This document shows, piece after piece, positions 11,270-47,135 of a stretch of DNA of 64,000 nt (its first letter is position 1; each line of letters begins with the position of its first letter). Both the position numbers and the translations under genes were made by a program. The notes beneath the pieces were generated by a model. The model was not told the origin of the DNA and did no database searches. It saw only the letters and a program-made list of their open reading frames with translations. The stretch lies in sequence record MT944117.1; one strand, given 5' to 3'. The stretch comes from Escherichia phage PNJ1809-36.

Positions 11270-11282
11270 AGGAGACATAAAA

Positions 11283-11363
11283 ATGAAACATCGTTCGACC
11301 TATCTCACAAAACGTTTTAGCTTAGATCATAAATTGGGCTATTACGGAAGAAATAGAAAATAA
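11283..11363 (+). CDS. small basic peptide (26 aa)
   Basis: SD AAAGGAG + ATG 11283. Confidence 0.3.
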   Translation: MKHRSTYLTKRFSLDHKLGYYGRNRK

Positions 11364-11364
11364 T

Positions 11365-11424
11365 TTGACAACGTTTAAAATTAGTGTAAGATGTATCACA
11401 TAGGGCGGGAAGTGGTTTCCCGCC
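11365..11424 (+). promoter_or_regulatory. early cassette promoter E8 with 5'-proximal stem-loop
   Basis: -35 TTGACA 11365-11370, -10 TAAGAT 11387-11392, stem-loop GGCGGGAA-GTGGT-TTCCCGCC 11404-11424. Confidence 0.65.
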
Positions 11425-11446
11425 AACAACAGAGAGATTAAAGATT

Positions 11447-11674
11447 ATGGCTATCAATATTGTTCGTGTATCCGGCACCGTTGGCAGTTCCCAGGTTGTA
11501 GCAGTTGTAACAAACAAAAAGATTAATGATGTATGTGAGATCTTGAATAAGTGGGCTATTGCTAATTTTGGAGAATATGCGAGCGTCGAGTACATCGAAT
11601 CCTACCAGGTGCCAACCATCAGCCTAACCGATCTCAACGTTGATCGCCTGTTATGCCTGGATGAATTAATCTGA
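11447..11674 (+). CDS. hypothetical early protein (75 aa)
   Basis: ORF; leader AACAGAGAGATTAAAG. Confidence 0.6.
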   Translation: MAINIVRVSGTVGSSQVVAVVTNKKINDVCEILNKWAIANFGEYASVEYIESYQVPTISLTDLNVDRLLCLDELI

Positions 11675-11683
11675 AAAAGATTG

Positions 11684-11740
11684 TTGACACGGGAAAGAAA
11701 AAGAGTAAACTGTATTACGTAGGGCGGCAATGGTGCCGCT
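11684..11740 (+). promoter_or_regulatory. early cassette promoter E9 with 5'-proximal stem-loop
   Basis: -35 TTGACA 11684-11689, -10 TAAACT 11706-11711, stem-loop GGCGGCA-ATGG-TGCCGCT 11723-11740. Confidence 0.65.
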
Positions 11741-11764
11741 CACAACAGAAGAGAGATTATCACG

Positions 11765-11980
11765 ATGGCTAATATCCGCACACTGTTAAAAAATGCAAGT
11801 CAAGTTTTATTTTCAGATGACGAGTATTTCAATAAAGACATTACGGGCGTAAAAAGTCTTAAAGATGTAAAGGATGTAATAGGTATTCGCGGATCTTTAC
11901 GTAAGGGCGATTACTACGGTAACAAGGTGCAATATAAACTGTCAAAAGATTATGATTTTACTTTGACAATTATCAACTAA
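11765..11980 (+). CDS. hypothetical early protein (71 aa)
   Basis: ORF; leader CACAACAGAAGAGAGATTAT. Confidence 0.6.
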   Translation: MANIRTLLKNASQVLFSDDEYFNKDITGVKSLKDVKDVIGIRGSLRKGDYYGNKVQYKLSKDYDFTLTIIN

Positions 11981-11991
11981 GGGATCACAAA

Positions 11992-12150
11992 ATGAAAACT
12001 TGCCAATGTGGTAAAAAGTCTATCTCTGGTTTAAAACGTGGCGTTGCTCTTTGTCAATACCACTATAACGCTCAAACGTGGGGTAAGCAGTGGGCGGATC
12101 AGGTGGAAGAGGCAAAGAAAGAAAATATAAAAGTAGTTGCAAAGAAATAA
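11992..12150 (+). CDS. small Cys-containing protein (52 aa), possible zinc ribbon
   Basis: SD AAGGGA + ATG 11992; CQCG...LCQYHY. Confidence 0.4.
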   Translation: MKTCQCGKKSISGLKRGVALCQYHYNAQTWGKQWADQVEEAKKENIKVVAKK

Positions 12151-12198
12151 AAATAGAGTAAACTGTATTACATCAAGGCGGCGGAATGGTCCACCGCC
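12137..12198 (+). promoter_or_regulatory. early cassette promoter E10 with 5'-proximal stem-loop
   Basis: -35 TTGCAA 12137-12142, -10 TAAACT 12159-12164, two-helix stem-loop GGCGG-c-GGA-ATGG-TCC-a-CCGCC 12177-12198. Confidence 0.55.
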
Positions 12199-12222
12199 TA
12201 ACAAAGAGAAGAGGAAAATATC

Positions 12223-12390
12223 ATGATCACTTTCGCTACCCGTGAAGCCGCTCGCAACGTTGCACGTAAAGTTAACGCCGCCAACTTGGGCGCTACGCTT
12301 AAAGCCCCTGTAAAAGATGAATCAGGAAAATGGATCTTACCTGGTCTGCGTCATGCTGACAAGTTAGGTACTTTAAGCCTTAAAAAATAA
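12223..12390 (+). CDS. hypothetical early protein (55 aa)
   Basis: ATG 12223 after AGAGAAGAGG leader; N-terminus MITFA shared with next gene. Confidence 0.5.
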   Translation: MITFATREAARNVARKVNAANLGATLKAPVKDESGKWILPGLRHADKLGTLSLKK

Positions 12391-12393
12391 TCG

Positions 12394-12430
12394 TTGACTT
12401 TTCGTTATAGCGCCTTATAATGGGCGCTAT
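12394..12430 (+). promoter_or_regulatory. promoter E11 with perfect 8-bp inverted repeat flanking the -10
   Basis: -35 TTGACT 12394-12399, -10 TATAAT 12416-12421, IR ATAGCGCC (12406-12413) / GGCGCTAT (12423-12430). Confidence 0.6.
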
Positions 12431-12464
12431 AGAGAAGAGAAACCACTATTAACAAGGAAACATC

Positions 12465-12686
12465 ATGATTACTTTTGCTATTGTCGCCGTTGTTGCTGGT
12501 CAGGTTTACGTAAACGAGACATTTACTACAGAAGACAAGGCCGCAGGAGATATAACCGCCGTTTACAATGAGTGCAAGGCAGTAGAAAGGATGTTATCGC
12601 CTTGTATGCTAATGAGTGAACGTCAGGATGGGATAACAGTATTTACTAACATTGAAACAGGGTACCAAATGGTAGTAACAAAATAA
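12465..12686 (+). CDS. hypothetical early protein (73 aa)
   Basis: ORF; SD AAGGAAAC. Confidence 0.6.
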   Translation: MITFAIVAVVAGQVYVNETFTTEDKAAGDITAVYNECKAVERMLSPCMLMSERQDGITVFTNIETGYQMVVTK

Positions 12687-12689
12687 AGC

Positions 12690-12746
12690 TTGACACGTAT
12701 TTAATTTTCAGTAAACTGTTACACGTAGGGCGGGAATAGTTCCCGC
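12690..12746 (+). promoter_or_regulatory. early cassette promoter E12 with 5'-proximal stem-loop
   Basis: -35 TTGACA 12690-12695, -10 TAAACT 12712-12717, stem-loop GCGGGAA-TAG-TTCCCGC 12730-12746. Confidence 0.65.
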
Positions 12747-12764
12747 TAAAAAGAGAGAAAGACC

Positions 12765-13118
12765 ATGAAAGCACAAAATGCAATTAAAGAGTACATCCTT
12801 GCCGCTATCGATTTTAATGATTATGGTATTACAACCGAAAAAGAGAAGATCGCGGAATTGATGCGCCGTTTTAATTCCGAGTACTGGTACCCTGATAACC
12901 AATCACGTTTTAATTATAGTATTGTTAAAGCACTTGCATCATGGTTACAAGGTTTGCCATCAGATATTAATATCGCTTTCGAATATTGGGAAATTGATCG
13001 CTTGTTAACATCCTGGGGATACATTAAAGAGAATAGCAGCGATGATAAAATCCAACGAGAAAGGGAAAATTATTGGCTTTATATTGCAGGCGTGATCCTT
13101 GCTTGCTCTTATGAATGA
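12765..13118 (+). CDS. hypothetical early protein (117 aa)
   Basis: ORF; leader AAAGAGAGAAAGACC. Confidence 0.65.
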   Translation: MKAQNAIKEYILAAIDFNDYGITTEKEKIAELMRRFNSEYWYPDNQSRFNYSIVKALASWLQGLPSDINIAFEYWEIDRLLTSWGYIKENSSDDKIQRERENYWLYIAGVILACSYE

Positions 13119-13124
13119 TAAACC

Positions 13125-13178
13125 TTGACAATTTTACAAAACAGTTTAAATTAATAATATAGCGGCAATGGTGCCGCT
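13125..13178 (+). promoter_or_regulatory. early cassette promoter E13 with 5'-proximal stem-loop
   Basis: -35 TTGACA 13125-13130, -10 TAAATT ~13148-13153, stem-loop AGCGGCA-ATGG-TGCCGCT 13161-13178. Confidence 0.55.
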
Positions 13179-13197
13179 CATATAAAGAGGAAACAAA

Positions 13198-13344
13198 ATG
13201 AATACATCTAATCGCGCAGAAAAAATTCAATCTTCCAAGATCCGCAAGGCCTGGAATGAGGAAGTGATCCGCAAAGGCGACAAGCGCAATAAAACAAAGC
13301 GCGGGAAGAGTGACAAATATAATTGGATGGATTTAGAGAATTAA
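13198..13344 (+). CDS. small basic protein (48 aa), Lys/Arg-rich
   Basis: SD AAAGAGG + ATG 13198; KIRKAWNEEVIRKGDKRNKTKRGK. Confidence 0.45.
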   Translation: MNTSNRAEKIQSSKIRKAWNEEVIRKGDKRNKTKRGKSDKYNWMDLEN

Positions 13345-13352
13345 CATAACAA

Positions 13353-13378
13353 GGGCGCACCAAGCGCCCTTTCTTTTT
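13353..13378 (+). terminator. rho-independent terminator
   Basis: GGGCGC-ACCAA-GCGCCC followed by TTTCTTTTT; identical copy at 18808. Confidence 0.75.
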
Positions 13379-13399
13379 ACATGTAGAGGATAAACAAAA

Positions 13400-13585
13400 A
13401 TGACTTTAAACGAGCTTAAAACAGCCTATAACGCAACATTAAAAATAGCCGTGCGTTACCGTGACGAATACGGTTTTATTGCGCAGGGCGTGATCCTGGG
13501 CTTTTCTGACGATGGTTTGATCTATGTTGATGCACATCACAACAAGGTTAAACTTGAAAACGTCATTAGCATAAAATATCTTTAA
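13400..13585 (+). CDS. hypothetical early protein (61 aa)
   Basis: ORF; SD GAGGA. Confidence 0.55.
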   Translation: MTLNELKTAYNATLKIAVRYRDEYGFIAQGVILGFSDDGLIYVDAHHNKVKLENVISIKYL

Positions 13586-13591
13586 AAGTGG

Positions 13592-13650
13592 TTGACACCA
13601 TAACCGGACCTGTTAAACTGTATTACATCAGGCGGGGAATAGTTCCCCAC
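13592..13650 (+). promoter_or_regulatory. early cassette promoter E14 with 5'-proximal stem-loop
   Basis: -35 TTGACA 13592-13597, TGtTAAACT 13611-13619, stem-loop GGGGAA-TAG-TTCCCC 13634-13648. Confidence 0.65.
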
Positions 13651-13670
13651 CATACAAAAAGGTAAATATT

Positions 13671-13877
13671 ATGATCACCGCAAAACAAGAAAAAATCATT
13701 ATCGACGTTGCAGCCGTTGCCGCTATTGCTATTATCGGTACCTACTATGACACCGCGCGTCCTTCCTCCTTGCATGAGATCGCCGCCGTTGCATCAGTTG
13801 GCGTGCTGTTTTACGTTGGTAAACGTTATTTATCACCAATGATTAACAAGCTGACACCGTGGAAAAATAAAGGTTGA
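13671..13877 (+). CDS. small membrane protein (68 aa)
   Basis: ORF; two hydrophobic segments (VAAVAAIAIIGTYY, IAAVASVGVLFYVG). Confidence 0.6.
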   Translation: MITAKQEKIIIDVAAVAAIAIIGTYYDTARPSSLHEIAAVASVGVLFYVGKRYLSPMINKLTPWKNKG

Positions 13878-13929
13878 TCCTGTTTTATATTGTGTTATAG
13901 TTATCGTGTAGGGCGGCAATGGTGCCGCG
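13874..13929 (+). promoter_or_regulatory. early cassette promoter E15 with 5'-proximal stem-loop
   Basis: -35 TTGATC 13874-13879, TGtTATAGT 13893-13901, stem-loop GGCGGCA-ATGG-TGCCGC 13912-13929. Confidence 0.6.
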
Positions 13930-13948
13930 CCCCTTTGAGGATGCAATC

Positions 13949-14233
13949 ATGAGTAAAGCTAACACCGTGCTAATGTTTTCCCTGATTAATGATCCCGCTT
14001 ACTTGTCCAACATGACGCAGGAGGGTAACACATTAACGGCAACATTCACCAATAAGCTTGACCGAGTGATCATCATCTCACTGAAAACAGTTAGTAAAGG
14101 CTTTTACTCGTTAGCTTATCATTGGATCACTGATACCGATGAGACAAGCCAGGACTATAGCGCCCCTTTCCCTGAATCAATGGCACGGGAGATCATCGCC
14201 GCCGTTGTAAATGATGGTTTGTTTACTGCATAA
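13949..14233 (+). CDS. hypothetical early protein (94 aa)
   Basis: ATG 13949 after SD GAGGA; listed 13919 start lies within the hairpin. Confidence 0.6.
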   Translation: MSKANTVLMFSLINDPAYLSNMTQEGNTLTATFTNKLDRVIIISLKTVSKGFYSLAYHWITDTDETSQDYSAPFPESMAREIIAAVVNDGLFTA

Positions 14234-14251
14234 AATAATTTAGAAAAAGGC

Positions 14252-14308
14252 TTGCAATCATTTTGAGATAGTGTATATTTAATTCATAGGGCGGCGGGAA
14301 TAGTTCCC
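14252..14308 (+). promoter_or_regulatory. early cassette promoter E16 with short 5'-proximal stem-loop
   Basis: -35 TTGCAA 14252-14257, -10 TATATT 14274-14279, stem-loop GGGAA-TAG-TTCCC 14296-14308. Confidence 0.5.
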
Positions 14309-14331
14309 AAAGCAAACGAGAGGATTACACG

Positions 14332-14451
14332 ATGAGCAAGTACACAGTAGAATACACGGTAGAGAATCCGGTAGTATCCGAAGGTAAAAAGATGACATTT
14401 GCCATCAGTATAATCGCTTTCGTTGTCACTATCTTATCAATCATCTTATAA
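14332..14451 (+). CDS. small membrane peptide (39 aa)
   Basis: SD GAGAGGA + ATG 14332; C-terminal hydrophobic helix. Confidence 0.4.
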   Translation: MSKYTVEYTVENPVVSEGKKMTFAISIIAFVVTILSIIL

Positions 14452-14461
14452 GGTGCACACC

Positions 14462-14623
14462 ATGAAAATAACAGACATTATCAAAGAGATCGCCCTTGCC
14501 GCTGGCGTTGAAGTCGAGGAAGTGATCGCGCTCAATCTTACAGAAAACGATCTGCGCAACTATGAAGCGGAAAGCGTGAAAGCAAGCGGCGCGGTCCTGG
14601 TATATGATCCGGCTAACAAGTAA
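14462..14623 (+). CDS. hypothetical early protein (53 aa)
   Basis: ATG 14462 after SD AAGGTG; listed ORF 14423 start is upstream alternative. Confidence 0.5.
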   Translation: MKITDIIKEIALAAGVEVEEVIALNLTENDLRNYEAESVKASGAVLVYDPANK

Positions 14624-14632
14624 GGGGATAAC

Positions 14633-14743
14633 ATGAATCCGAAAGATATGCAAGCATGGAAAGGGTACGACGATCTAAGCGCCTTGCGCAATAAGTCAAG
14701 CCGTAACCTTAGACGGTTGGAAGCAAAGAAAAAGAAAAAATAG
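14633..14743 (+). CDS. small basic peptide (36 aa)
   Basis: SD AAGGGGA + ATG 14633; Lys-rich C-terminus. Confidence 0.35.
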   Translation: MNPKDMQAWKGYDDLSALRNKSSRNLRRLEAKKKKK

Positions 14744-14744
14744 T

Positions 14745-14801
14745 TTGACAAGTCCGCGTAGTCTGATAATATGTATCTTGTAGCGCGGCAATGGTGCCGC
14801 T
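14745..14801 (+). promoter_or_regulatory. early cassette promoter E17 with 5'-proximal stem-loop
   Basis: -35 TTGACA 14745-14750, TGaTAATAT 14764-14772, stem-loop GCGGCA-ATGG-TGCCGC 14785-14800. Confidence 0.65.
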
Positions 14802-14821
14802 CACAAGAAGAGAGAAAAATC

Positions 14822-15106
14822 ATGAAAATTACAAAAAGCCTAACTAATTATGCAGCACGTCGCGGATTATGCTTAACCGTTGAAAACTTAGGGAAAGAAG
14901 ACTTTTTGTGTTTTTGGGAGCTTGAGAATGATTGCGAGTGGATGTTTTCTTATTCTATCTGCGAAGATCAAAACGGTTGTTTGTTAACCTGGCGCGGTAA
15001 TATCTATTTACCGGAAGAAATTAAAGAAGAGTTACCAGGTACGATCATGACAGAGAGACAGCTTAAGGAAGTGATCAATTTTGTAGGGCAAAACATTAAA
15101 AAATAA
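14822..15106 (+). CDS. hypothetical early protein (94 aa)
   Basis: ATG 14822 after leader CACAAGAAGAGAGAAAAATC. Confidence 0.6.
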   Translation: MKITKSLTNYAARRGLCLTVENLGKEDFLCFWELENDCEWMFSYSICEDQNGCLLTWRGNIYLPEEIKEELPGTIMTERQLKEVINFVGQNIKK

Positions 15107-15107
15107 T

Positions 15108-15169
15108 TTGACAGTAGGCAAACAACGTAGTAAAGTTTATTACATAGAGCGGCGGAATGGTCCACCGCT
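15108..15169 (+). promoter_or_regulatory. early cassette promoter E18 with 5'-proximal stem-loop
   Basis: -35 TTGACA 15108-15113, -10 TAAAGT 15131-15136, two-helix stem-loop GCGG-c-GGA-ATGG-TCC-a-CCGC 15148-15169. Confidence 0.6.
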
Positions 15170-15191
15170 CACAACAGAAGAGAAACAAATC

Positions 15192-15362
15192 ATGATCCCG
15201 ACTATGTTTTATGTATCGCGCAAAGGTCACAATATTTTTTGGTCTGAAGATTTAAATGAAGCTATGACGTTTGCCCGTGATCGTGTTGCTATCGGTGGCG
15301 TTAACATCACCGTAACCGATGAAAATGGCATTGAATACTATAACGGCGACGATGAAGAATAA
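15192..15362 (+). CDS. hypothetical early protein (56 aa)
   Basis: ATG 15192 after conserved leader CACAACAGAAGAGAAACAAATC. Confidence 0.5.
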   Translation: MIPTMFYVSRKGHNIFWSEDLNEAMTFARDRVAIGGVNITVTDENGIEYYNGDDEE

Positions 15363-15369
15363 TTAATGA

Positions 15370-15390
15370 GGCGGGGGAGTATTCCCCGCC
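15370..15390 (+). ncRNA. promoter-less intercistronic GC stem-loop (same family as cassette hairpins)
   Basis: GGCGGGGGA-GTA-TTCCCCGCC, no T-run, no upstream -35/-10. Confidence 0.45.
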
Positions 15391-15409
15391 GTCAATAAAG
15401 AGGTAAATC

Positions 15410-15679
15410 ATGAAAATATCATTAGACGTTGCAATCAAGGCCATCGAATCTGGTTACATCCTGGTAAAAGATGATAAGGCTAAAATAGTGCATCATGTTA
15501 ACAAGGAAACAGGTGAAAGCATGATCACATATAAAGCCGCCTACTTTCTCCAATCAGTAGCAGATCCGCGCGTACAACGCCAGGTTACGGCGGCTATTGC
15601 TAAAAAATTATGTGCTTTACAGGGTACAAGTTTTAACGAGATCGCCCCGTGTTTTGAGTGGTCAAGCTTGAAAAAATAA
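15410..15679 (+). CDS. hypothetical early protein (89 aa)
   Basis: ORF; SD AAAGAGG. Confidence 0.6.
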   Translation: MKISLDVAIKAIESGYILVKDDKAKIVHHVNKETGESMITYKAAYFLQSVADPRVQRQVTAAIAKKLCALQGTSFNEIAPCFEWSSLKK

Positions 15680-15680
15680 T

Positions 15681-15742
15681 TTGACAACAATTATAAATCG
15701 GGTAGAATGTATTTCGTAGGGCGGGGCAATAAGGCAACGCCC
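15681..15742 (+). promoter_or_regulatory. early cassette promoter E19 with degenerate 5'-proximal stem-loop
   Basis: -35 TTGACA 15681-15686, -10 TAGAAT 15703-15708, GGGCG...CGCCC 15719-15742. Confidence 0.55.
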
Positions 15743-15760
15743 ATTAATGAGGGTAGAATC

Positions 15761-15865
15761 ATGTTAGAGAAAATTTTCACGGTCGTAGTAGTGGGCCTGG
15801 CGTTATCGGTTGGAGTGGTTGCGACTATGGCTAACATGATCCTATCTTCCCACGGTATCGGCTAA
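15761..15865 (+). CDS. small membrane peptide (34 aa)
   Basis: SD GAGGG + ATG 15761; hydrophobic helix. Confidence 0.4.
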   Translation: MLEKIFTVVVVGLALSVGVVATMANMILSSHGIG

Positions 15866-15879
15866 AAGAGAGACACAAC

Positions 15880-16266
15880 ATGAAAACAGAAATCATTATT
15901 GAAATCATCAACGGCTATAAAGAAGCCTTTATTTTTGCTGAATCAGCAAGGGATCATGAAGGTAATTTTATTGATAACTTAGACGATTATGATTTTTCTC
16001 CTAGCGCGGACGAACGGATCGCCCAGGATGTAACAGCCTTTATTAATGCTAATCTTGCCGCTATCTCTGAGGCAATGAGCGACGGCGCAACAGCCAACCA
16101 GATCGGGAATGATTTACATTTTACCCGTAACAGTCACGGCGTAGGCTTTTGGGATCGCCCTGAAATATACACCACTAACACAGCCAACCGCCTAACCAAT
16201 GCAGCTAAGTTTATGCCGAACGTGTCGGCTTACATTGGTGAAGATAATTTGATTTATATTGAATAA
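15880..16266 (+). CDS. hypothetical early protein (128 aa)
   Basis: ORF; SD AAAAGAGAG. Confidence 0.65.
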   Translation: MKTEIIIEIINGYKEAFIFAESARDHEGNFIDNLDDYDFSPSADERIAQDVTAFINANLAAISEAMSDGATANQIGNDLHFTRNSHGVGFWDRPEIYTTNTANRLTNAAKFMPNVSAYIGEDNLIYIE

Positions 16267-16272
16267 AAAGTA

Positions 16273-16329
16273 TTGACACAGATCGCCAGTGTGCTAATAT
16301 TTACCACGTAGGGCGGCAATGGTGCCGCC
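16273..16329 (+). promoter_or_regulatory. early cassette promoter E20 with 5'-proximal stem-loop
   Basis: -35 TTGACA 16273-16278, TGcTAATAT 16292-16300, perfect stem-loop GGCGGCA-ATGG-TGCCGCC 16312-16329. Confidence 0.65.
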
Positions 16330-18792: not shown

Positions 18793-18807
18793 TTGACAAC
18801 AAAACAA

Positions 18808-18833
18808 GGGCGCACCAAGCGCCCTTTCTTTTT
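18808..18833 (+). terminator. rho-independent terminator closing the early array
   Basis: GGGCGC-ACCAA-GCGCCC followed by TTTCTTTTT. Confidence 0.75.
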
Positions 18834-20366
18834 GCCCGAATAATGTTGATAGATTCCGCCTATGAAAAACCGACACAGAACAAAACTGAATAGATCGCGG
18901 TATCGAGCTAATCAACCATTAAACGAATAACCATACCTCCCAGGGTAACAGGTTGTTAGAGAGCCATTTAGAGCGGTTAAAATCGATCAACAACCAACAA
19001 CAAACCATCAAAAACACCCTTTTACCTCCTTTCTAGTGCAATGATAACCATTATCATCTATCCATGTTTATCTATGCAATATAAGTGCATAACTATAATG
19101 TTGATAATAGTTCGCAACAACTAACTAACCAACAACCTAAAACAATAAGCAAACTAATCATAATCAAAGGAATAATAGCAAGATGATTGATAACGACAAA
19201 CAATCAAACCATGATGAATACTAAGCAAGATAACGATAACACGACAAAACAACCAACTAACGAACAATAACAAACGAAACCATTAAAATAACAACTATTA
19301 GCAAAATAGTGCCTGAATGAAATCATTACAAAACGAATCATTCACAGGATCATCATTAGCACGCTATGCCGGACACATAGCGAGCTAATAATAAGCCAAC
19401 TACACCCCAACAATCATAACCATCGGTGATGGTTATTTCTTGTTACTGCGTAGCTTGCAATAATTGCAAGCGTAATGACGCTTACACTTATTGCGCTGGC
19501 TTATTATTAGCATTATATGTAATTACCAAGATCATAACATTAGCGCAATAACAATAATCATTGTGGTAATTACAAGATGAAATAATCGCTATCGCTCAAA
19601 GATTATTAGCAAGATGAATAATTGCACGTAGCAACATGAGCGAATAGCGACAGGTTGCATAGTGTGCACATAGATGTACACGCAGTGTATAAACATACAG
19701 GAAAATAAAGGCTAATCTTTTGGGGGCGAATACTATCGCGTAGCGATATGTTGAGCATCTTCTCTTAAACGTAAATAAAATCAGAAAATTCTTGATTTAT
19801 TTTAATTTTTATGTTAATAAACGTTTAAATAATAATCATTCTCATATGAATAATAGTCTGCTTGTCATGAGCGGGATTAGTTGACAATGTTCCGTCATAT
19901 GATGAGGTTGCCAAACCATTGATAAATAAGTGTTTGTGTGATTTATAATCAAGCGGCCCACCTTGTCGCTATGTTGGCATGAGCCTTGCATAAGTCATTG
20001 AATACGAATGATAATTATTCTCATTCGCATGATATTTGGGAATTGTCGCTGCGTGGACCTGACGGCCCGAAAATTCGCGTTAAGCACTTCTTACGTATGT
20101 GCCATGATTTTTGCCATATGATATTGATTCTACTAGATATTCTTGCCATGATTGCCATGAAACAGGGTGTCCCGAAATAATCTCTCCCTGTAGATATTTT
20201 GGGTTACTTTTTATACAAGAGTGGGGTGTCAAAAATAATTGGTATATATGGGATAATTGATAGGAATCCCCTATGATAATTCGATTGTAATTCCCTAAGA
20301 TTGATCGTATGATGTTGGTGATTGATGATTGCCATGAAAGATGGCTAACGATGAGAGGAGATTATC
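18834..20366. other. gene-free 1.5-kb region, strand-skewed A+C-rich (CAA/AAC-rich, G/T-poor on plus strand)
   Basis: no credible ORF; long tracts such as aaccaacaacaaaccatcaaaaacaccc and acaaaacaaccaactaacgaacaataacaaacg. Confidence 0.7.
20100..20337. repeat. five copies of TTGCCATGA-type motif including a perfect tandem pair
   Basis: TGCCATGA at ~20100, TTGCCATATGA ~20111, TTGCCATGATTGCCATGA 20143-20160, TTGCCATGA 20329-20337. Confidence 0.6.
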
Positions 20367-20812: not shown

Positions 20813-21025
20813 ATGCATAGCATGAAACGCATGAAAATTCGTATTGAGAATGATGGTGGTTATAAAGGATTGGCACATGCAAAATTTCCACTTGTGCTGG
20901 AAGCTACGGTGGAATACAGTGGGCTTGCTCATGTGCGATTCTCGAAGATGATGGAAGTGCAGGAGTGGTTTTGGGACGAGATAGATGCACGAGAAGGGGG
21001 AAGATTATGTTTTCTTTCCTCATGA
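20813..21025 (+). CDS. hypothetical protein (70 aa)
   Basis: SD GAGGAG + ATG. Confidence 0.6.
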   Translation: MHSMKRMKIRIENDGGYKGLAHAKFPLVLEATVEYSGLAHVRFSKMMEVQEWFWDEIDAREGGRLCFLSS

Positions 21026-21056
21026 ATATGAAATCGTTTATTAAAGGTTGTGTGCA

Positions 21057-21296
21057 ATGATCACACCACAACAGAATGAAGCAGCAATGGATCTTCTTGA
21101 TAGTTTGTATTTCGATAATTGGTACTCTGAATGTGAATGGATGAATATGCAAACTCTGAAAGAGAAGACAGAAGCGTTGATTACCGTAGATCAATTTCTT
21201 GCAGAGACGGAAAGAATGAATTATGATATGGCATCTCGCGCACGACGCGTTTCCATTTTCAATAAAATGTTAGCATTATGGGGAGGTAGAAAATGA
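21057..21296 (+). CDS. hypothetical protein (79 aa)
   Basis: first ATG in listed ORF 21048 (TTG start). Confidence 0.55.
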   Translation: MITPQQNEAAMDLLDSLYFDNWYSECEWMNMQTLKEKTEALITVDQFLAETERMNYDMASRARRVSIFNKMLALWGGRK

Positions 21297-21754
21297 GACA
21301 ATTCACTATACTGGCAGCTTATGTGCAATGTGTTCACGATTATGTTAGTGCTCATACAGGTTTGCTGGAAGTTAATAGTAAAATTGAAGGCAATATGGGT
21401 ACTGTCTATGTGCAACATACTTTATCTAACGTGCCGTATAAAGTGTTCACTGTTGTAGCTGCCGATTACAATCGTGTAGATGTGCGTTTCTTGGATCATA
21501 ATTTTCGTAACGCACTAGATAATATCGAAGATTATCTTCCCGTGAAACCTTTGTCATTTCCACCGAGTCGTGCAAATAATGTAGTGACAAACCTTAATGA
21601 AAGGAATGTGGCTATGCACAAAAAAGTCCGTCAACTGAAAACGCTGATGGAAATGCAAGAAGAGATTGAAAAAGAACTGAAAGAAGATTTTGGTATGCTT
21701 CCAAAAGACGCTTTGAAATGGTATGATGAACTAGGAGGAGAAAGTTATGAATAA
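21293..21754 (+). CDS. hypothetical protein (153 aa)
   Basis: SD GGGGAGG; ATGA overlap. Confidence 0.65.
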   Translation: MRQFTILAAYVQCVHDYVSAHTGLLEVNSKIEGNMGTVYVQHTLSNVPYKVFTVVAADYNRVDVRFLDHNFRNALDNIEDYLPVKPLSFPPSRANNVVTNLNERNVAMHKKVRQLKTLMEMQEEIEKELKEDFGMLPKDALKWYDELGGESYE

Positions 21755-21777
21755 AGAGACTACTGTATATTTAGTGA

Positions 21778-21921
21778 CTAAGAACACCCCAGGTTGGAAT
21801 CAGTGCTCAACACCTCGAAAAAATTCTCTCCAATGATAGCAGCAATACTGTTATCAAAGGTAGAATATAGTCGCATATAATCTTCATCCTGGAAACGGTA
21901 GACATGACCTTCTTTAAACAT
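21778..21921 (-). CDS. small antisense-oriented hypothetical protein (47 aa)
   Basis: internal ATG of listed ORF with strong SD AAGGAG 6 nt upstream. Confidence 0.45.
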   Translation of the reverse strand: MFKEGHVYRFQDEDYMRLYSTFDNSIAAIIGENFFEVLSTDSNLGCS

Positions 21922-22035
21922 TGTATGCTCCTTCTTGTTCAAGAGTGAAAGGAATGATTTCACCATAGCTGTATCGCATAGCATCAACTTCTGCTTCTGC
22001 ACGTTGTGCTAGTTCTAGTGTTGCACAGATTTTAT

Positions 22036-22389
22036 ATGGGGTTGTTGAGCACTGATGCAAATGGTAATATCTTGTCAATTGTTGTGATAGGGAGAGACGG
22101 TATTATCACTGCTAGTGATGGGGATCGTTACATAATCAATTCTGCTCATATAGATTATTTTGTTGACGGTGGTATTCGTGGTGGTCGTGGAAAACCCCAA
22201 GAAGAACCTGTTGATACAACAAAAGAAGAGTGGTATGTTGTAATGACTGATGACACCTGTATTTCTGGATTTGAAAGTTATGAAGAAGCTTTGAAAGAAG
22301 CAGCAGAGCATAAAATGGCTAATCCTACAGAAGAGGTTGAAGTTTATAAACGTTTGGTTGTTGCTACCATCGGCGTATCTTTTGTTTAA
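22036..22389 (+). CDS. hypothetical protein (117 aa)
   Basis: first ATG in listed ORF 22006; no clear SD, start uncertain. Confidence 0.45.
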   Translation: MGLLSTDANGNILSIVVIGRDGIITASDGDRYIINSAHIDYFVDGGIRGGRGKPQEEPVDTTKEEWYVVMTDDTCISGFESYEEALKEAAEHKMANPTEEVEVYKRLVVATIGVSFV

Positions 22390-22401
22390 AAGGGGAATGT
22401 T

Positions 22402-22839
22402 ATGTTTAAAGTTAATGCTGTTTACTGTTTCAAAACTAAAGCTGCCCGTGAAGCTTTCTCTATGATCTCTGATGAAAATTTCAAAATGGCAGCTTTGATT
22501 GAAGGGTCTTGTTTCCGCGTCGAAGATGTTAGTGAATCAGGCTCTGTTTGCTCATTGACTTTATTGGACAGCGGGGATATTATTGAAGCTGGACAGTATC
22601 CGTTCAGAAGTTGGGGGATATTGTTAGCTCGCGGAGAGCGTAACTTTTTTATGTGCGTGTCTGCGGGGGAAGTTGTGAAAGAAACTAAGGATGTTTCTGT
22701 TTACAATTCTGAATTTATAAGTTATAGTGAGTATCAACATCTGGAAGGCATTGTTGGTCACTTGTTATCTCTGATTAATATTGAATGTGACTTGCCTGAA
22801 TCATTGAAAGAAGAGTTGAAAGCATTAGATCTGCTATAA
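22402..22839 (+). CDS. hypothetical protein (145 aa)
   Basis: SD AAAGGGGA. Confidence 0.65.
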   Translation: MFKVNAVYCFKTKAAREAFSMISDENFKMAALIEGSCFRVEDVSESGSVCSLTLLDSGDIIEAGQYPFRSWGILLARGERNFFMCVSAGEVVKETKDVSVYNSEFISYSEYQHLEGIVGHLLSLINIECDLPESLKEELKALDLL

Positions 22840-22866
22840 TGTTTCACACAACGAAAGGAGAATAAG

Positions 22867-23166
22867 ATGAATCTGACTGAACAGTTACGCCGTATTGCAA
22901 AAGAAGCTTCCTTCAACTTCCCTGTTGAAGAAGTGATCGAGACATGTTTTGCTGAAGCACGAGCGGGAAACTCTTCAAGAAATTTCACGCCATCTGATTT
23001 TGGTTTGGATAATTCTCCTACTCACCCAGGGGAAATCTACAATCAGGTGAAATGGATGGATGAAGCAGTAGCAATTCTTCGTGAGCGTGGGCTTATTGTT
23101 TATAAAGAAATGGATCTGAACGGGGCATACGAGTGGATCACTATTGATTGGTCGGAGGTGAAATAA
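22867..23166 (+). CDS. hypothetical protein (99 aa)
   Basis: SD AAAGGAGA. Confidence 0.65.
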   Translation: MNLTEQLRRIAKEASFNFPVEEVIETCFAEARAGNSSRNFTPSDFGLDNSPTHPGEIYNQVKWMDEAVAILRERGLIVYKEMDLNGAYEWITIDWSEVK

Positions 23167-30523: not shown

Positions 30524-30736
30524 ATGAAGGTACATTACCCTCATCCCTTTGATCCTAAAAACAAAGCCGTAATTCTTCGTCAGTGGCAACGGGTTTGTCG
30601 TACTAAATGTCCAATCAATAGCCCACACAATGTAGACAAGGACTATCTTGGTACATTTGTTGAATACACTTACATAGACAAAAACAAGCGTAAACAACAT
30701 GTCGAGGAATACTGCTTAAGAGTAGAATGGCTGTAA
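30524..30736 (+). CDS. hypothetical protein (70 aa)
   Basis: SD AGGGGG; ATGA overlap. Confidence 0.55.
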   Translation: MKVHYPHPFDPKNKAVILRQWQRVCRTKCPINSPHNVDKDYLGTFVEYTYIDKNKRKQHVEEYCLRVEWL

Positions 30737-30748
30737 ATAATAAATACC

Positions 30749-30777
30749 TTGACAAGTGTTTATTCGTTTTGTAAAGT
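30749..30777 (+). promoter_or_regulatory. sigma70-type promoter upstream of recombinase gene
   Basis: TTGACA 30749-30754, 17-nt spacer, TAAAGT 30772-30777. Confidence 0.55.
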
Positions 30778-30806
30778 GGGAATACAGCAATGGTTTAGGA
30801 GTGGTT

Positions 30807-31478
30807 ATGAAAAAGTTTGTTGTTTACAGTCGTCTTTCTAAACAGAAAAAAGGTGAGGCACAATATGGTATGGAGAGCCAAGAGAATGATATCCGTTACT
30901 TCTTAGACTCTGTGCCTGATGCGGAAGTTATTGGTCAATTTTCTGAATACTATTCGGGTAAGGGCGATTGGAAGCAACGTAAGGAACTGGTTAAAGCGGT
31001 TGAAATGTGTAAAGCTACCGGAGCAACTTTATTGGTAGCTAAAGTTGACCGCTTGGGTCGTAACAACGCCTCTGTAGCAACTCTTCTAGAGATGATCGAT
31101 GTTAAGATAGCCATCATGCCAGACGCAGATAAAATGGTTATACAGCTTCTGTCTGTTCTGGCTGAACAAGAAGTTAGAGGTATTGCTGATCGTATTAAAA
31201 AGGGTCTTGCTGTAGCAAAAAGCAAAGGTGTTTTATTAGGCAGTGCTAATCCTAAAACTGCCGCTGCACGTAGAAAAGGGAAAATGGAATACAACTCTGT
31301 TAAAGCAGACGCTTTTGCAGAGACATTCCGTGAACGCTTGGAGATCCTTAGAGATTTAAATACACCTTACAAAACTATTGCTGAAAAATTCAATAGTAAG
31401 AAAATAGCAACAGCACGTGGTGGTAAATGGGATGCTAAAACTGTTTCTCGTTTGTGTGCCAGACTGAACATTAAATAG
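30807..31478 (+). CDS. serine recombinase (resolvase/invertase family)
   Basis: VVYSRLSKQ (catalytic Ser region), LLVAKVDRLGRN, QLLSVLAEQEVRGIADRIKKGL match resolvase catalytic domain; C-terminal HTH-like tail; ATG 30807 after GGAGTGG. Confidence 0.8.
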   Translation: MKKFVVYSRLSKQKKGEAQYGMESQENDIRYFLDSVPDAEVIGQFSEYYSGKGDWKQRKELVKAVEMCKATGATLLVAKVDRLGRNNASVATLLEMIDVKIAIMPDADKMVIQLLSVLAEQEVRGIADRIKKGLAVAKSKGVLLGSANPKTAAARRKGKMEYNSVKADAFAETFRERLEILRDLNTPYKTIAEKFNSKKIATARGGKWDAKTVSRLCARLNIK

Positions 31479-31486
31479 GAGAGGAT

Positions 31487-31909
31487 ATGAAACAAGAAAA
31501 TGAATCTGTAGATCACTTAATCATGCTGTCAGCCCTTTTTGCCGGATGGGACGTATTTTTTGAAAATTTGTTCAATTCTTCTACAGATGGTTCCGATTTT
31601 ATGCGCCAGTTTAAACGACGAACTGTTGAGGACTATGCTTTCTATTCAGGTCGGATTGAAAAAGGTTACGAAGATACAAATACAACACTCACCATTAAAG
31701 TTTTAGATGTGATGTTTAGTGTTATAGATGCTATCGACGAAAGTCTTCCGATCCTAGACAATTGTAATACGAAAGCCTATGTTTACAAAATAGCTCGTGC
31801 TTATGTGTCTGCAAACAGTTGTCTTCTTTCCACCCAGATTGCCGTGAACAATCTTGCCAACTTGTTTGATGAAGGAGAAACTTTTTATGACAATCGATTT
31901 GAAGTGTAA
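31487..31909 (+). CDS. hypothetical protein (140 aa)
   Basis: SD AATAGGAGAGG. Confidence 0.65.
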   Translation: MKQENESVDHLIMLSALFAGWDVFFENLFNSSTDGSDFMRQFKRRTVEDYAFYSGRIEKGYEDTNTTLTIKVLDVMFSVIDAIDESLPILDNCNTKAYVYKIARAYVSANSCLLSTQIAVNNLANLFDEGETFYDNRFEV

Positions 31910-37644: not shown

Positions 37645-37667
37645 AACCCGCTTCGGCGGGTTTTTTC
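37645..37667 (+). terminator. rho-independent terminator (UUCG tetraloop)
   Basis: AACCCGC-TTCG-GCGGGTT followed by TTTTTT; same stem as 4993. Confidence 0.75.
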
Positions 37668-42363: not shown

Positions 42364-42388
42364 TAAAAAACCCGCCGAAGCGGGTTAT
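42364..42388 (-). terminator. rho-independent terminator (UUCG tetraloop)
   Basis: minus strand AACCCGC-TTCG-GCGGGTT followed by TTTTTTATT. Confidence 0.7.
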
Positions 42389-46691: not shown

Positions 46692-46886
46692 TCATTCTAC
46701 CAAAGAGAATTCCGCCTCTTCCAGGTAGATTACAGACCTTGTTGCATGATATTTAACGCTCCAGAAATTACCTTCGCGCCGTAAAAGTATCTCATTCACA
46801 TCAAGATTGCTTAGAAAAACCATATAACTTAAAGCTTGTTGACGCGTTGAGAATTGTTTCTCTAAAAGTTCTTCTCCGCTCTGCAT
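46692..46886 (-). CDS. hypothetical protein (64 aa)
   Basis: SD AAGGAGGG. Confidence 0.6.
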   Translation of the reverse strand: MQSGEELLEKQFSTRQQALSYMVFLSNLDVNEILLRREGNFWSVKYHATRSVIYLEEAEFSLVE

Positions 46887-46931
46887 AATCCCTCCTTAAA
46901 ATACTCCCTCCGAAAAGGGAGTATAAGTATA

Positions 46932-47135
46932 TCACGTAGTTGTTATGTTGTCTTCTTGGATTCTAGAATCCACTTCTGCAAACATATCTTCTGCACTGTA
47001 ATTATTTCCAGTCCAGCGTGATAAAAGGATAGCACCAATCTCTTTTGCATGAGATTCGGACTCCGCATAAACGTTAGTCCCAGTGTCACCTTTTTTCTTT
47101 TCATGTGCATAAATGCAGTAATAATTGTAAGCCAT
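46932..47135 (-). CDS. hypothetical protein (67 aa)
   Basis: TAATG overlap with upstream gene. Confidence 0.55.
   Translation of the reverse strand: MAYNYYCIYAHEKKKGDTGTNVYAESESHAKEIGAILLSRWTGNNYSAEDMFAEVDSRIQEDNITTT

What the first reader, a model, noticed from the sequence alone, without database searches (positions are those of the whole stretch)
30749..31478. Serine recombinase with its own promoter inside the small-gene block
A clear resolvase/invertase-family catalytic domain with an HTH tail in what otherwise looks like a virulent-phage early region. It could drive a DNA inversion switch, resolve replication multimers, or mark a former mobile insertion. I did not find gix/hix-like crossover sites nearby.
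Basis: partly seen in the sequence, partly recalled or inferred. Interest (0 to 1): 0.6.

Follow-up and report, generated by a model that had tools for sequence, protein, structure and literature searches.

The report
Orphan serine recombinase in virulent coliphage
This is a real, apparently active site-specific DNA recombinase gene kept by nearly all phAPEC8/phi92-type virulent E. coli phages; databases already annotate it, no inversion switch or integration was found, and it most likely resolves replicating phage DNA at a target that is still unknown.

Summary
Window 30807-31478 (+) encodes a 223-aa serine recombinase (Pfam Resolvase, E=5e-18). It has an AGGAG ribosome-binding site and a TTGACA-17-TAAAGT promoter at 30749-30777. 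The window is a Phapecoctavirus, about 99.5% identical to phAPEC8.

All catalytic residues are invariant across 64 diverse homologues. Among five phapecoctaviruses every codon difference is synonymous. The tail is not a Hin-type HTH. It is a five-helix domain resembling the start of the "Recombinase" domain of large serine integrases.

The gene is core in Stephanstirmvirinae (about 131 of 133 records) and absent from rV5-like relatives. It sits at two alternative loci, each with its own promoter.

- **Inversion switch: not supported.** There are no paired sites genome-wide, and about 60 genomes are collinear in the regions tested.
- **Integrase: not supported.** There is no match in 5,426 E. 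coli genomes.
- **Mobile remnant: not supported.**
- **Best reading (about 0.35): an early-expressed resolvase acting on replicating phage DNA.** Full-length homologues lie on 6-kb Rep/Par plasmids and in phage exonuclease/RecT/primase modules. No target site was identified.

GenBank and one paper already call it a putative recombinase or resolvase. It is a new member of a known kind, of modest interest.

One thing noticed in passing: this genome alone carries a 258-bp inversion (21799-22056) between 14-bp inverted repeats.

The parts
30749..30777 (+). Sigma-70-type promoter candidate: TTGACA, 17 nt, TAAAGT
   Evidence: scores it 10 of 12 with a perfect -35 hexamer. It lies in the 70-bp gap between the upstream stop (30736) and the ATG. 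Homologues in Justusliebigvirus, KP13-26 and Tr1 also carry a TTGAC(A/T/C)-type promoter directly upstream although they sit elsewhere in the genome. Function is not tested, and promoter-like matches are not enriched in this region overall.
30739..30764 (.). Weak imperfect palindrome AATAAATAC-N8-GTGTTTATT overlapping the -35 hexamer; a speculative binding or autoregulatory site only
   Evidence: It occurs once in the window, but 28 of 100 shuffles give at least one match. A dyad this good occurs in about 30% of random 90-nt pieces of the window. No other half-site copies lie nearby. Listed only because promoter-overlapping dyads are about 2.4-fold enriched upstream of family members.
30797..30801 (+). 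Ribosome-binding site AGGAG, 5 nt before the ATG
   Evidence: Read directly from the sequence.
30807..31478 (+). Serine recombinase gene, 223 aa plus stop
   Evidence: It is 100% identical in protein to phAPEC8 G377_gp216, whose GenBank note reads 'putative site-specific recombinase'.
30807..31232 (+). Catalytic domain plus helix E (residues 1-142); the nucleophile Ser11 codon TCT is at 30837-30839
   Evidence: Pfam match covers residues 5-142. Y7, R9, S11, Q25, R58, D81, R82 and R85 are invariant, and E122 and R129 are at least 90% conserved, in 64 homologues of 29-81% identity. These correspond to gamma-delta resolvase Y6, R8, S10, R45, D67, R68, R71, E118 and R125. Residues 45-146 are mapped by the alignment; the N-terminal YxRxS motif is mapped from established knowledge.
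31251..31463 (+). C-terminal five-helix putative DNA-binding domain (residues 149-219)
   Evidence: Model helices are 149-156, 161-172, 175-183, 188-197 and 210-219, with block-mean pLDDT 64-79 over residues 141-170 and 87-95 from residue 171 on. There is a sub-threshold PF07508 match at residues 187-216. The same family is recorded for homologues P0073, P0074, P0076, P0082 and P0087. Foldseek aligns the model with Bxb1 integrase beyond the catalytic domain.

Best explanation
The gene encodes a catalytically active small serine recombinase. Its build is a resolvase-type catalytic domain, then helix E, then a short helical DNA-binding domain related to the start of the large-serine-integrase 'Recombinase' domain.

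Proposed working:
- Host RNA polymerase transcribes the gene from its own sigma-70-type promoter soon after infection.
- The protein binds a dyad-symmetric site in phage DNA.
- Through Ser11 it makes concerted double-strand breaks, rotates subunits and religates, recombining two directly repeated copies of that site.
- Only one site per genome is needed, because the two copies arise by replication or by terminal redundancy. This would keep early circular replication templates monomeric, or help circularise the incoming genome.

What is shown:
- fold, and intact catalytic residues under strong purifying selection;
- core status in the subfamily;
- no paired inversion sites, and no integration in 5,426 complete E. 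coli genomes.

What is inferred:
- early timing;
- resolvase rather than another activity;
- that the target lies on phage DNA.

The site itself is unknown.
For: 1. Active enzyme.
- Catalytic residues are invariant in 64 homologues.
- Five phapecoctaviruses differ at up to 12 codons per pair, all synonymous and none non-synonymous.
- The fold matches Sin, gamma-delta, TP901-1 and Bxb1 catalytic domains.

2. Useful to the phage rather than a passenger.
- Present in about 131 of about 133 Stephanstirmvirinae records.
- In Justusliebigvirus, KP13-26, an unnamed 49%-identity contig and Shewanella phages 1/4 and 1/40 (35% identity) it lies in the same neighbourhood, between HslV-like and DprA-like genes.

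3. A single-site role fits the negative evidence.
- No inverted or direct site pairs genome-wide.
- No orientation variants in about 60 genomes.
- No copy in 5,426 complete E. coli genomes.

4. Family context points to replicon maintenance and replication.
- 110 plasmid records carry full-length homologues of up to about 40% identity. They include 5.8-6.4 kb non-mobilizable plasmids where it is the only annotated recombinase; one of these, pMaD11, has RepA and a ParA-like gene.
- Across 169 viral and bacterial loci the commonest neighbours are a YqaJ exonuclease (48 loci, just downstream on the same strand), a phage PDDEXK endonuclease (26), RecT (17), a primase-helicase (13) and a Dcm methylase. 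A 593-aa neighbour present in 31 loci looks like a tyrosine integrase by its H-x-x-R ... Y pattern, but has no Pfam match.

5. Promoter-overlapping dyads, as in autoregulated resolvases, are enriched upstream of family members: 24 of 82 against 125 of 1045 controls.
Against: - No res-like site was found. The palindrome at this gene's own promoter is no better than chance, and the 70-bp upstream gap is too short for a Tn3-type three-subsite res.
- The family-wide dyad enrichment is modest, and the loci are not independent.
- The function of the plasmid and prophage homologues is itself only inferred.
- Phages that package from concatemers do not obviously need multimer resolution, and the related rV5-like phages lack the gene.
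- One isolate, Schickermooser, has at least six small indels in the 5' half of the gene. If real, the gene is dispensable in culture.
- Expression timing has not been measured.
Confidence: 0.35

Rival explanations
1. It acts in trans on DNA that is not the phage's own, either the host chromosome or phage satellites. It might excise, invert or sabotage an element as part of takeover or phage-satellite conflict.
For: - No cognate site is detectable in the phage genome.
- Stephanstirmvirinae phages (Inny, Muut, Mt1B1_P17) are reported to carry Odn-like anti-satellite nucleases, and 224 putative E. coli satellites were described. This parallels ICP1 and its PLE satellites (PMC10055350).
- A 30%-identity homologue with an intact YSRKS...DRAAR motif sits in a stretch of ICP1 isolate 2017_DRC_48 whose genes carry no legacy GP numbers in the record, which suggests a variable region.
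- One bacterial homologue (P0082) lies in a small element with a primase and a small-terminase-like gene.
Against: - This is purely circumstantial. No target was identified.
- No DNA-level relative of the gene exists in 5,426 E. coli genomes.
- The closest bacterial homologues are at most 41% identical and mostly alphaproteobacterial.
- A counter-defence gene would be expected to be variable. This one is 100% conserved in protein across about 60 isolates.
Confidence: 0.15
2. It is a DNA invertase that flips a segment of the phage genome as an on/off or variant switch. The 258-bp inversion at 21799-22056 could then be its product.
For: - The PHROG label is 'DNA invertase'.
- This genome carries a clean 258-bp inversion, 9 kb upstream, bounded by a perfect 14-bp inverted repeat. 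No other sequenced relative shows it.
- In Shewanella phages 1/4 and 1/40 a 34-bp palindrome at the homologue's promoter is exactly flipped between the two genomes.
- Prophage homologue P0071 sits next to a baseplate gene.
Against: - Apart from terminator hairpins, no inverted-repeat pair of 20 bp or more exists in the 148-kb genome.
- The best inverted pair, 22-bp terminators 4.7 kb apart, is never seen flipped.
- The 24-kb tail/baseplate/tail-fibre region is collinear in all 45 listed records, and 65 records align over at least 80% of it in one place. Window 40-64 kb is collinear in all 60 listed records.
- The 14-bp repeat at 21799/22043 is absent or imperfect in relatives, matching 7 of 14 or 12 of 14 positions. 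It lies inside two unrelated coding sequences, and the flipped state truncates both genes. That looks like a one-off homology- or replication-mediated accident.
- There is no HTH_7 domain. Whether a Fis-type enhancer exists cannot be tested with these tools.
Confidence: 0.07
3. It is a selfish or relic mobile gene, for example the leftover of a transposon or cassette, or a self-mobilising recombinase. On this view it has no role for the phage.
For: - It occupies two different loci within the subfamily. In Phapecoctavirus and Citrobacter phage Tr1 it lies in the + strand small-gene block. In Justusliebigvirus, KP13-26 and others it lies between the HslV-like and DprA-like genes.
- At each locus it is a compact promoter-plus-gene unit.
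- The ICP1 homologue lies in an apparently variable region of one isolate.
- The Schickermooser copy looks disrupted.
Against: - It is single-copy, present in about 131 of 133 genomes, and syntenic across very distant phages.
- There are no non-synonymous changes among five genomes.
- There are no flanking repeats and no transposase. The empty site in the window (46886-46932) shows only a terminator hairpin.
- Catalytic residues are invariant over deep divergence.
Confidence: 0.08
4. It is an integrase that allows lysogeny or pseudolysogeny.
For: Safety screens flag 'recombinase' genes. The second PHROG hit is 'integrase', and the C-terminal domain resembles part of the serine-integrase recombinase domain.
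Against: - At 223 aa it lacks the zinc-ribbon and coiled-coil domains of serine integrases.
- blastn at 65-70% sensitivity found no match to the gene region in 5,426 complete E. coli genomes.
- Temperate relatives that carry a homologue also carry another candidate integrase: P0071 lies near a 448-aa large serine recombinase, and 31 loci have a 593-aa neighbour resembling a tyrosine integrase.
Confidence: 0.02

Closest known systems
Tn3 / gamma-delta resolvase and Sin (small serine resolvases)
   Same: Same catalytic-domain fold and the same catalytic residues: Ser nucleophile in a YxRxS motif, DRxxR, and the Glu/Arg of helix E. Sequence matches to PDB chains 5cy1, 1gdt and 2r0q range from E=2.8e-6 to 1.7e-4. 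The best Foldseek matches are Sin and gamma-delta. Size and N-to-C domain order are similar. The proposed activity, resolution at directly repeated sites, is the same.
   Different: Only about 20-28% identity. The loop between beta-4 and helix E is about 7 residues shorter. The C-terminal domain is not HTH_7. There is no transposase partner and no adjacent multi-subsite res; the upstream gap is 70 bp. It is carried by a virulent phage.
Hin / Gin / Cin / Pin DNA invertases
   Same: Serine recombinase catalytic domain and a phage-borne gene. PHROG 125, which it matches, is labelled 'DNA invertase'.
   Different: There is no HTH_7, no pair of 26-bp inverted sites flanking a segment next to the gene, and no orientation polymorphism among about 60 genomes.
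Large serine recombinases (Bxb1, phiC31, TP901-1 integrases)
   Same: Same catalytic domain. The C-terminal helices resemble the first part of their 'Recombinase' domain (PF07508, sub-threshold here and recorded in homologues). Foldseek aligns the model with Bxb1 over 259 columns.
   Different: 223 aa instead of 450-700 aa. The rest of the recombinase domain, the zinc ribbon and the coiled coil are missing. No att sites and no lysogens were found.
Uncharacterised 'recombinase family proteins' of small plasmids (e.g. Marinovum pMaD11, Klebsiella 5.8-6.5 kb plasmids, Synechococcus 6.4 kb plasmid) and of phage exonuclease/RecT modules
   Same: Full-length homology (94-99% coverage, roughly 35-40% identity), with the same length and architecture. 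These are the true family of the window gene. In the three small plasmids inspected it is the only annotated recombinase.
   Different: Their function is also untested. They sit on plasmids or temperate elements of other bacterial phyla, not in a virulent enterobacterial phage.
P1 Cre-lox (functional analogy only)
   Same: A phage-encoded site-specific recombinase with one site per genome that circularises terminally redundant DNA and resolves dimers (established knowledge). This is the kind of job proposed here.
   Different: Cre is a tyrosine recombinase and P1 is temperate and plasmid-forming. No lox-like site has been identified here.

Membership tests
Serine recombinase superfamily (PF00239) | Resolvase-type catalytic domain fold | tested here: met
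   Pfam E=5.2e-18 at 66 bits against a cutoff of 23.3. The AlphaFold model (pLDDT 88.7) has top Foldseek hits to Sin, gamma-delta, TP901-1 and Bxb1 with probability 1.00.
Serine recombinase superfamily (PF00239) | Nucleophilic Ser in an N-terminal YxRxS motif, plus conserved Arg/Asp/Arg (gamma-delta R8, R45, D67, R68, R71) and Glu/Arg of helix E | tested here: met
   Y7, R9, S11, R58, D81, R82 and R85 are invariant, and E122 and R129 are at least 90% conserved, in 64 homologues.
Serine recombinase superfamily (PF00239) | Demonstrated recombination activity | not testable with these tools
   Needs biochemistry or genetics.
DNA invertases (Hin/Gin/Cin/Pin) | C-terminal HTH_7 DNA-binding domain | tested here: not met
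   No HTH_7 hit at E up to 1. The tail is a five-helix domain with a weak PF07508 match.
DNA invertases (Hin/Gin/Cin/Pin) | Two inverted crossover sites of about 26 bp flanking an invertible segment, usually next to the gene | tested here: not met
   No such pair exists in the window or in the full phAPEC8 genome. The only long inverted pairs are terminator hairpins.
DNA invertases (Hin/Gin/Cin/Pin) | Both orientations of the segment seen among isolates or within populations | tested here: not met
   Every listed record aligns in a single same-strand place over window 40-64 kb (60 records) and over the 24-kb tail/baseplate/tail-fibre region (45 records). Over window 20-45 kb the main place covers 87-97% in 51 of 60 listed records. 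The single exception is a one-off 258-bp inversion in this window at a non-conserved repeat. Within-population data are not available.
Tn3-type resolvases | Adjacent res with three dimer-binding subsites (about 115-120 bp), and a partner transposase | tested here: not met
   The upstream gap is 70 bp with one chance-level dyad and no further half-site copies within 1 kb on either side. Neighbouring genes are all of unknown function, with no transposase.
Large serine recombinases / integrases | Full recombinase domain plus zinc-ribbon and coiled-coil domains (over 400 aa) | tested here: not met
   The protein is 223 aa, and only about 30 residues match PF07508, below its cutoff.
Large serine recombinases / integrases | Integrated (prophage) copies in host genomes | tested here: not met
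   No match to window 30700-31500 in 5,426 complete E. coli genomes.
IS607-type serine transposases | N-terminal MerR-like HTH followed by a C-terminal catalytic domain | tested here: not met
   The domain order is reversed here: the catalytic domain occupies residues 1-142.
Clade of about 215-240-aa recombinases with a catalytic domain plus a truncated Recombinase-domain tail (plasmids, prophages, large myoviruses) | Full-length homology with the same architecture | tested here: met
   93 protein clusters at E of 1e-5 or better, mostly 98-100% coverage. 487 viral-contig relatives, 110 plasmid records and 234 bacterial-genome relatives.
Clade of about 215-240-aa recombinases with a catalytic domain plus a truncated Recombinase-domain tail (plasmids, prophages, large myoviruses) | Known biochemical role of the clade, i.e. 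multimer resolution | not testable with these tools
   No characterised member was found. NCBIfam gives no equivalog above its cutoff.

The most novel reading that the evidence does not exclude
A strictly virulent phage lineage has kept an active site-specific recombinase for a job other than housekeeping resolution. It might act in trans on host or satellite DNA as a weapon in phage-satellite conflict, in parallel with ICP1. Or it might be a promiscuous invertase that produced the 258-bp inversion at 21799-22056 and so reshuffles the early small-gene block.
Probability: 0.12. Interest if true: 0.65.

Novelty: new member of a known kind. Interest (0 to 1): 0.3.

Why it matters
Phapecoctaviruses and phi92-like phages are popular candidates for phage therapy. 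Safety screens treat 'recombinase' genes as lysogeny markers. Some genome papers state that these phages have no recombinase (PMC5374246, PMC10269720), while others guess 'resolvase' (PMC10282059).

This analysis shows three things:
- the gene is universal in the subfamily;
- it is very probably active;
- it is not an integrase, since no copy exists in 5,426 complete E. coli genomes.

That removes a false alarm and leaves a defined question: what does a core site-specific recombinase do in a virulent 150-kb phage?

The enzyme also belongs to a large, uncharacterised clade of compact 'mini-integrase-like' serine recombinases found on plasmids, prophages and marine myoviruses. Once target sites are found, members of this clade could be useful as tools.

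None of this is surprising enough to rank high. The gene is already annotated as a putative recombinase, and the most likely role is ordinary.

Tried and rejected
1. **Own-promoter palindrome as a crossover site.** AATAAATAC-N8-GTGTTTATT at 30739-30764 is unique in the window, but 28 of 100 shuffles give a match. About 30% of random 90-mers hold an equally good dyad. There are no extra half-sites, and the sequence is not conserved in other genera. Kept only as a weak candidate.

2. **Paired sites genome-wide.** I assembled the complete phAPEC8 genome and listed all exact direct and inverted repeats of 13 bp or more.
   - The long inverted pairs are terminator hairpins.
   - The long direct repeats are the roughly 20-35-bp 'PHIRE promoter' hairpin motif of the early region.

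3. **Orientation variants across about 60 genomes**. None were found except the window's own small inversion.
   - Window 1-20 kb and phAPEC8 50-76 kb and 100-133 kb were not surveyed this way.

4. **The 258-bp inversion as the recombinase's product**. Rejected as a programmed switch, for three reasons:
   - the 14-bp repeat is not conserved;
   - it lies in coding sequence;
   - the flipped state breaks two genes and is seen in one genome only.

5. **Literature searches.** Searches on phAPEC8 or Phapecoctavirus with recombinase or invertase, on ICP1 with serine recombinase, and on genome termini found no experimental work on this gene.

6. **Libraries that gave nothing.**
   - NCBIfam: no family above its cutoff.
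   - PADLOC: no hit.
   - Pfam and PHROGs on nine neighbouring genes: unknown function only.

7. **Upstream regions of three small-plasmid homologues.** I looked for a shared res architecture and no common pattern emerged.

8. **nieznany 'repeat_region'.** I followed this annotation hoping for terminal repeats. It is a 44-bp repeat inside a gene.
Full report
**What is there**

The finding's coordinates hold a + strand ORF from 30756 to 31478. All homologues start at the internal ATG at 30807 (MKKFVVYSRLSK...), which is preceded by AGGAG at 30797-30801. The gene is therefore 30807-31478, 223 aa.

Pfam gives Resolvase PF00239 at E=5.2e-18 over residues 5-142. It also gives a sub-threshold match to the N-terminal part of PF07508 'Recombinase' at residues 187-216. 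PHROG 125 'DNA invertase' matches at 2.6e-32. No NCBIfam equivalog comes near its cutoff.

An AlphaFold model built on 64 homologues has mean pLDDT 88.7. It shows a resolvase-type alpha/beta domain, a long helix E (109-139) and five C-terminal helices (149-219). Its best PDB fold matches are Sin, gamma-delta, TP901-1 and Bxb1.

Promoter-like matches are not enriched in this 6-kb stretch (20 found against 15.0 +/- 4.3 expected). The case for it rests on three things: its perfect -35 hexamer, its position in the 70-bp gap before the gene, and the presence of an equivalent promoter before the homologues of other genera.

**Which genome**

The 1.5 kb around the gene is 95-99.6% identical to 64 phage records, with phAPEC8 the best match. 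The window is a Phapecoctavirus (Stephanstirmvirinae), a roughly 150-kb virulent myovirus. It is collinear with phAPEC8 133.6-147.7 kb plus 1-49.8 kb.

GenBank already notes phAPEC8 G377_gp216 as a 'putative site-specific recombinase'. Other records call it resolvase, DNA invertase, serine recombinase or hypothetical. One paper guesses that it is a resolvase 'keeping concatemers as single molecules' (PMC10282059). Two others state that these phages encode no recombinase. I found no experimental work.

**Is it a working enzyme?**

In an alignment of 64 homologues at 29-81% identity, Y7, R9, S11, Q25, R58, D81, R82 and R85 are invariant. E122 and R129 are at least 90% conserved. By the alignment to gamma-delta and Tn3 resolvase and the known YxRxS motif, these are the nucleophile and the catalytic Arg, Asp and Glu residues.

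Among the window, phAPEC8, UP17, DE16 and nieznany, the gene differs at up to 12 codons per pair. Every difference is synonymous. The enzyme is therefore very likely active and under strong purifying selection.

One exception is phage Schickermooser. Its copy has at least six small indels in the 5' half while its flanks are clean. This is either a real pseudogene or poor sequence.

**Distribution and position**

A tblastn search of phage records finds the protein in 197 records:
- 62 at 99% identity or more;
- relatives at 67-80% (Schickermooser, phiWec186, Citrobacter Tr1);
- about 57% in Justusliebigvirus (phi92 gp053);
- 51-55% in Klebsiella KP13-16 and KP13-26;
- 35-38% in Vibrio 1.063.O and Shewanella 1/4 and 1/40;
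- 30% in some ICP1 isolates.

A conserved methyltransferase used as a marker counts about 133 Stephanstirmvirinae records, plus 241 more distant records, rV5-like phages among them. The recombinase is in about 131 of the former and in essentially none of the latter. It is a core gene of the subfamily.

Its position differs between lineages:
- In Justusliebigvirus, KP13-26, an unnamed 49%-identity phage contig and the Shewanella phages, it lies in the minus-strand cluster between the HslV-like and DprA-like genes.
- In Phapecoctavirus and Tr1, it lies in the + strand small-gene block.
- The old site in the window (46886-46932) holds only a terminator hairpin.

So the compact promoter-plus-gene unit moved once, but otherwise it has been inherited vertically for a long time. 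That argues against a recent or decaying mobile insertion.

The nine neighbouring genes have no known function. One is DUF7202.

**Test of the inversion-switch idea**

The window's inverted repeats are chance-level except a 22-bp terminator hairpin pair at 37645 and 42365. In the full phAPEC8 genome, no inverted pair of 20 bp or more exists besides such hairpins.

Across about 60 phapecoctavirus records:
- window 40-64 kb aligns in a single place on one strand at 89-100% coverage;
- the 24-kb tail/baseplate/tail-fibre region does the same at 88-100%, the shortfall being swapped tailspike modules;
- window 20-45 kb aligns at 87-97% on one strand in 51 of the 60 listed records; the others fall to 65-82% through record ends or missing segments, and most records show one small second place.

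That second place led to the one inversion found (described below), which is peculiar to this window. There is thus no sign of a gix/hix-type system. The protein also lacks the HTH_7 domain of invertases.

**Test of integration**

blastn at 65-70% sensitivity finds no match to the gene region in 5,426 complete E. coli genomes. The closest homologues in 185,579 species-representative genomes are at most 41% identical and mostly alphaproteobacterial. Lysogeny through this enzyme is effectively excluded.

**What the wider family suggests**

Full-length homologues (roughly 35-40% identity, 94-99% coverage) occur on 110 plasmid records, 92 of them non-mobilizable. They include 5.8-6.4 kb plasmids where this is the only annotated recombinase; Marinovum pMaD11 pairs it with RepA and a ParA-like gene. 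That is the classic setting of a multimer-resolution enzyme.

I clustered the neighbours in 169 loci from viral contigs and bacterial genomes. The most frequent were:
- a YqaJ-type exonuclease just downstream on the same strand (48 loci);
- a phage PDDEXK endonuclease (26 loci);
- RecT (17 loci);
- a primase-helicase (13 loci);
- an HTH_36 protein;
- a Dcm methylase;
- a 593-aa protein (31 loci) that resembles a tyrosine integrase by its H-x-x-R ... Y pattern but has no Pfam match.

So in temperate relatives the gene belongs to the replication/recombination module, and a different gene looks like the integrase.

Two prophage homologues lie beside tail or baseplate genes, so the family may not be uniform.

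Dyad-symmetric sequences overlapping the promoter are about 2.4-fold enriched upstream of family members. They occur in 24 of 82 loci against 125 of 1045 controls (Fisher p=6e-5), but the loci are related to each other. Strong examples are in KP13-26 and the Shewanella phages. The window's own 9-8-9 dyad at 30739-30764 is no better than chance.

**Most likely mechanism**

Putting this together, I think the protein is an early-expressed resolvase-type enzyme acting on replicating phage DNA at a single site per genome. It would resolve dimers of early circular templates or help circularise terminally redundant DNA, by the standard serine-recombinase chemistry. My confidence is about 0.35.

Weak points:
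- No site has been identified.
- The function of the plasmid homologues is itself inferred.
- The rV5-like relatives do without the gene.
- Phages that package from concatemers do not obviously need resolution.

Rivals, in order:
- a trans-acting role on host or satellite DNA (0.15); these phages, like ICP1, are reported to fight satellites (PMC10055350);
- a selfish or relic gene (0.08);
- an invertase (0.07);
- an integrase (0.02).

The remainder is 'something else'.

**The inversion noticed on the way**

Relative to every database phapecoctavirus, window 21799-22056 is inverted. It is bounded by a perfect 14-bp inverted repeat, ATCAGTGCTCAACA, at 21799-21812 and 22043-22056.

In the usual orientation two small genes are intact:
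- a 64-aa gene beginning MNK(G/E)TTVYLV...;
- the roughly 150-aa homologue of phAPEC8 gp239, beginning MFKEGHVYRF....

In the window both are split. Flipping the segment in silico restores a contiguous match at 95.7% to tuntematon, ESCO37 and 3A1. Those relatives have only 12 of 14 matching positions in the repeat, and TSP7_1 and DE16 have 7 of 14.

The endpoints coincide with a lineage-specific perfect repeat inside coding sequence, and only one genome shows the flipped, gene-breaking state. I therefore read it as a one-off event. It could come from homologous recombination or replication template switching, or conceivably from an assembly error. I do not read it as the recombinase's programmed target, although enzyme involvement cannot be excluded.

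**Verdict**

This is an uncharacterised clade member of a well-known enzyme superfamily. Databases already flag it, and it has a plausible but unproven housekeeping role. Interest is about 0.3.

Noticed in passing
window 21799-22056: A 258-bp segment is inverted relative to every database phapecoctavirus. It is bounded by a perfect 14-bp inverted repeat, ATCAGTGCTCAACA (21799-21812; reverse complement at 22043-22056). The inversion splits a 64-aa gene and the homologue of phAPEC8 gp239. Relatives have only 12 of 14 or 7 of 14 matching repeat positions and keep the canonical orientation. It is probably a one-off recombination or template-switch event, or an assembly artefact.
   Followed up: yes
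window 8362-16328 (seven copies, all on the + strand): The motif GGGCGGCAATGGTGCCGC occurs seven times against 0.01 expected. It contains a GCGGCA/TGCCGC hairpin and is often extended to GTAGGGCGGCAATGGTGCCGCTCACAA. Copies lie before small early genes. phAPEC8 annotates them as 'PHIRE' phage promoters. They could equally be RNA-level elements.
   Followed up: partly
window 18793-20366: This roughly 1.6-kb stretch has no ORF of 65 aa or more. It is AT-rich (32-40% GC) and A-rich with AACCAT/ACAAAC-like repeats. GC skew changes sign near 19.5 kb, and an 11-bp perfect dyad (TGTAATTACCA...TGGTAATTACA) lies at 19518-19574. There is no Rfam match. Many GenBank records of the genus start inside it, at about window 19750-20007. 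It is a candidate origin or packaging/terminus region.
   Followed up: partly
L007 3947-3980 and L009 3949-3982 (Shewanella phages 1/40 and 1/4): A 34-bp near-perfect palindrome overlaps the promoter of the recombinase homologue. Its sequence in one phage is the exact reverse complement of its sequence in the other, through six coordinated differences. This could be a hairpin-loop inversion or a trace of activity at a candidate binding site.
   Followed up: partly
L083 3001-3650 (Escherichia phage Schickermooser): The recombinase copy carries at least six small indels within about 200 bp of its 5' half, while the flanks are 96-100% identical in protein and only the 3' part is annotated. It is either a real pseudogene or low-quality sequence.
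   Followed up: partly
window 30524-30736: This 70-aa gene just upstream of the recombinase is a full-length DUF7202 protein (E=2e-37). Many GenBank records label it 'methionine ABC transporter ATP-binding protein', which is an evident annotation error.
   Followed up: yes
window 37645-37666 and 42365-42386: An identical 22-nt terminator hairpin (AACCCGCTTCGGCGGGTTTTTT) occurs in opposite orientations 4.7 kb apart, with a third copy elsewhere in phAPEC8. It bounds the Sir2/methyltransferase block. It is the longest perfect inverted repeat in the genome, yet the block is never seen inverted in about 60 genomes.
   Followed up: yes
window 21000-22900 and the homologous region of relatives: A small family of paralogous early genes starts with MFK(E/V)G.... 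Their number varies between isolates, which carry one, two or three copies, through recombination at a shared RBS-and-start sequence.
   Followed up: partly
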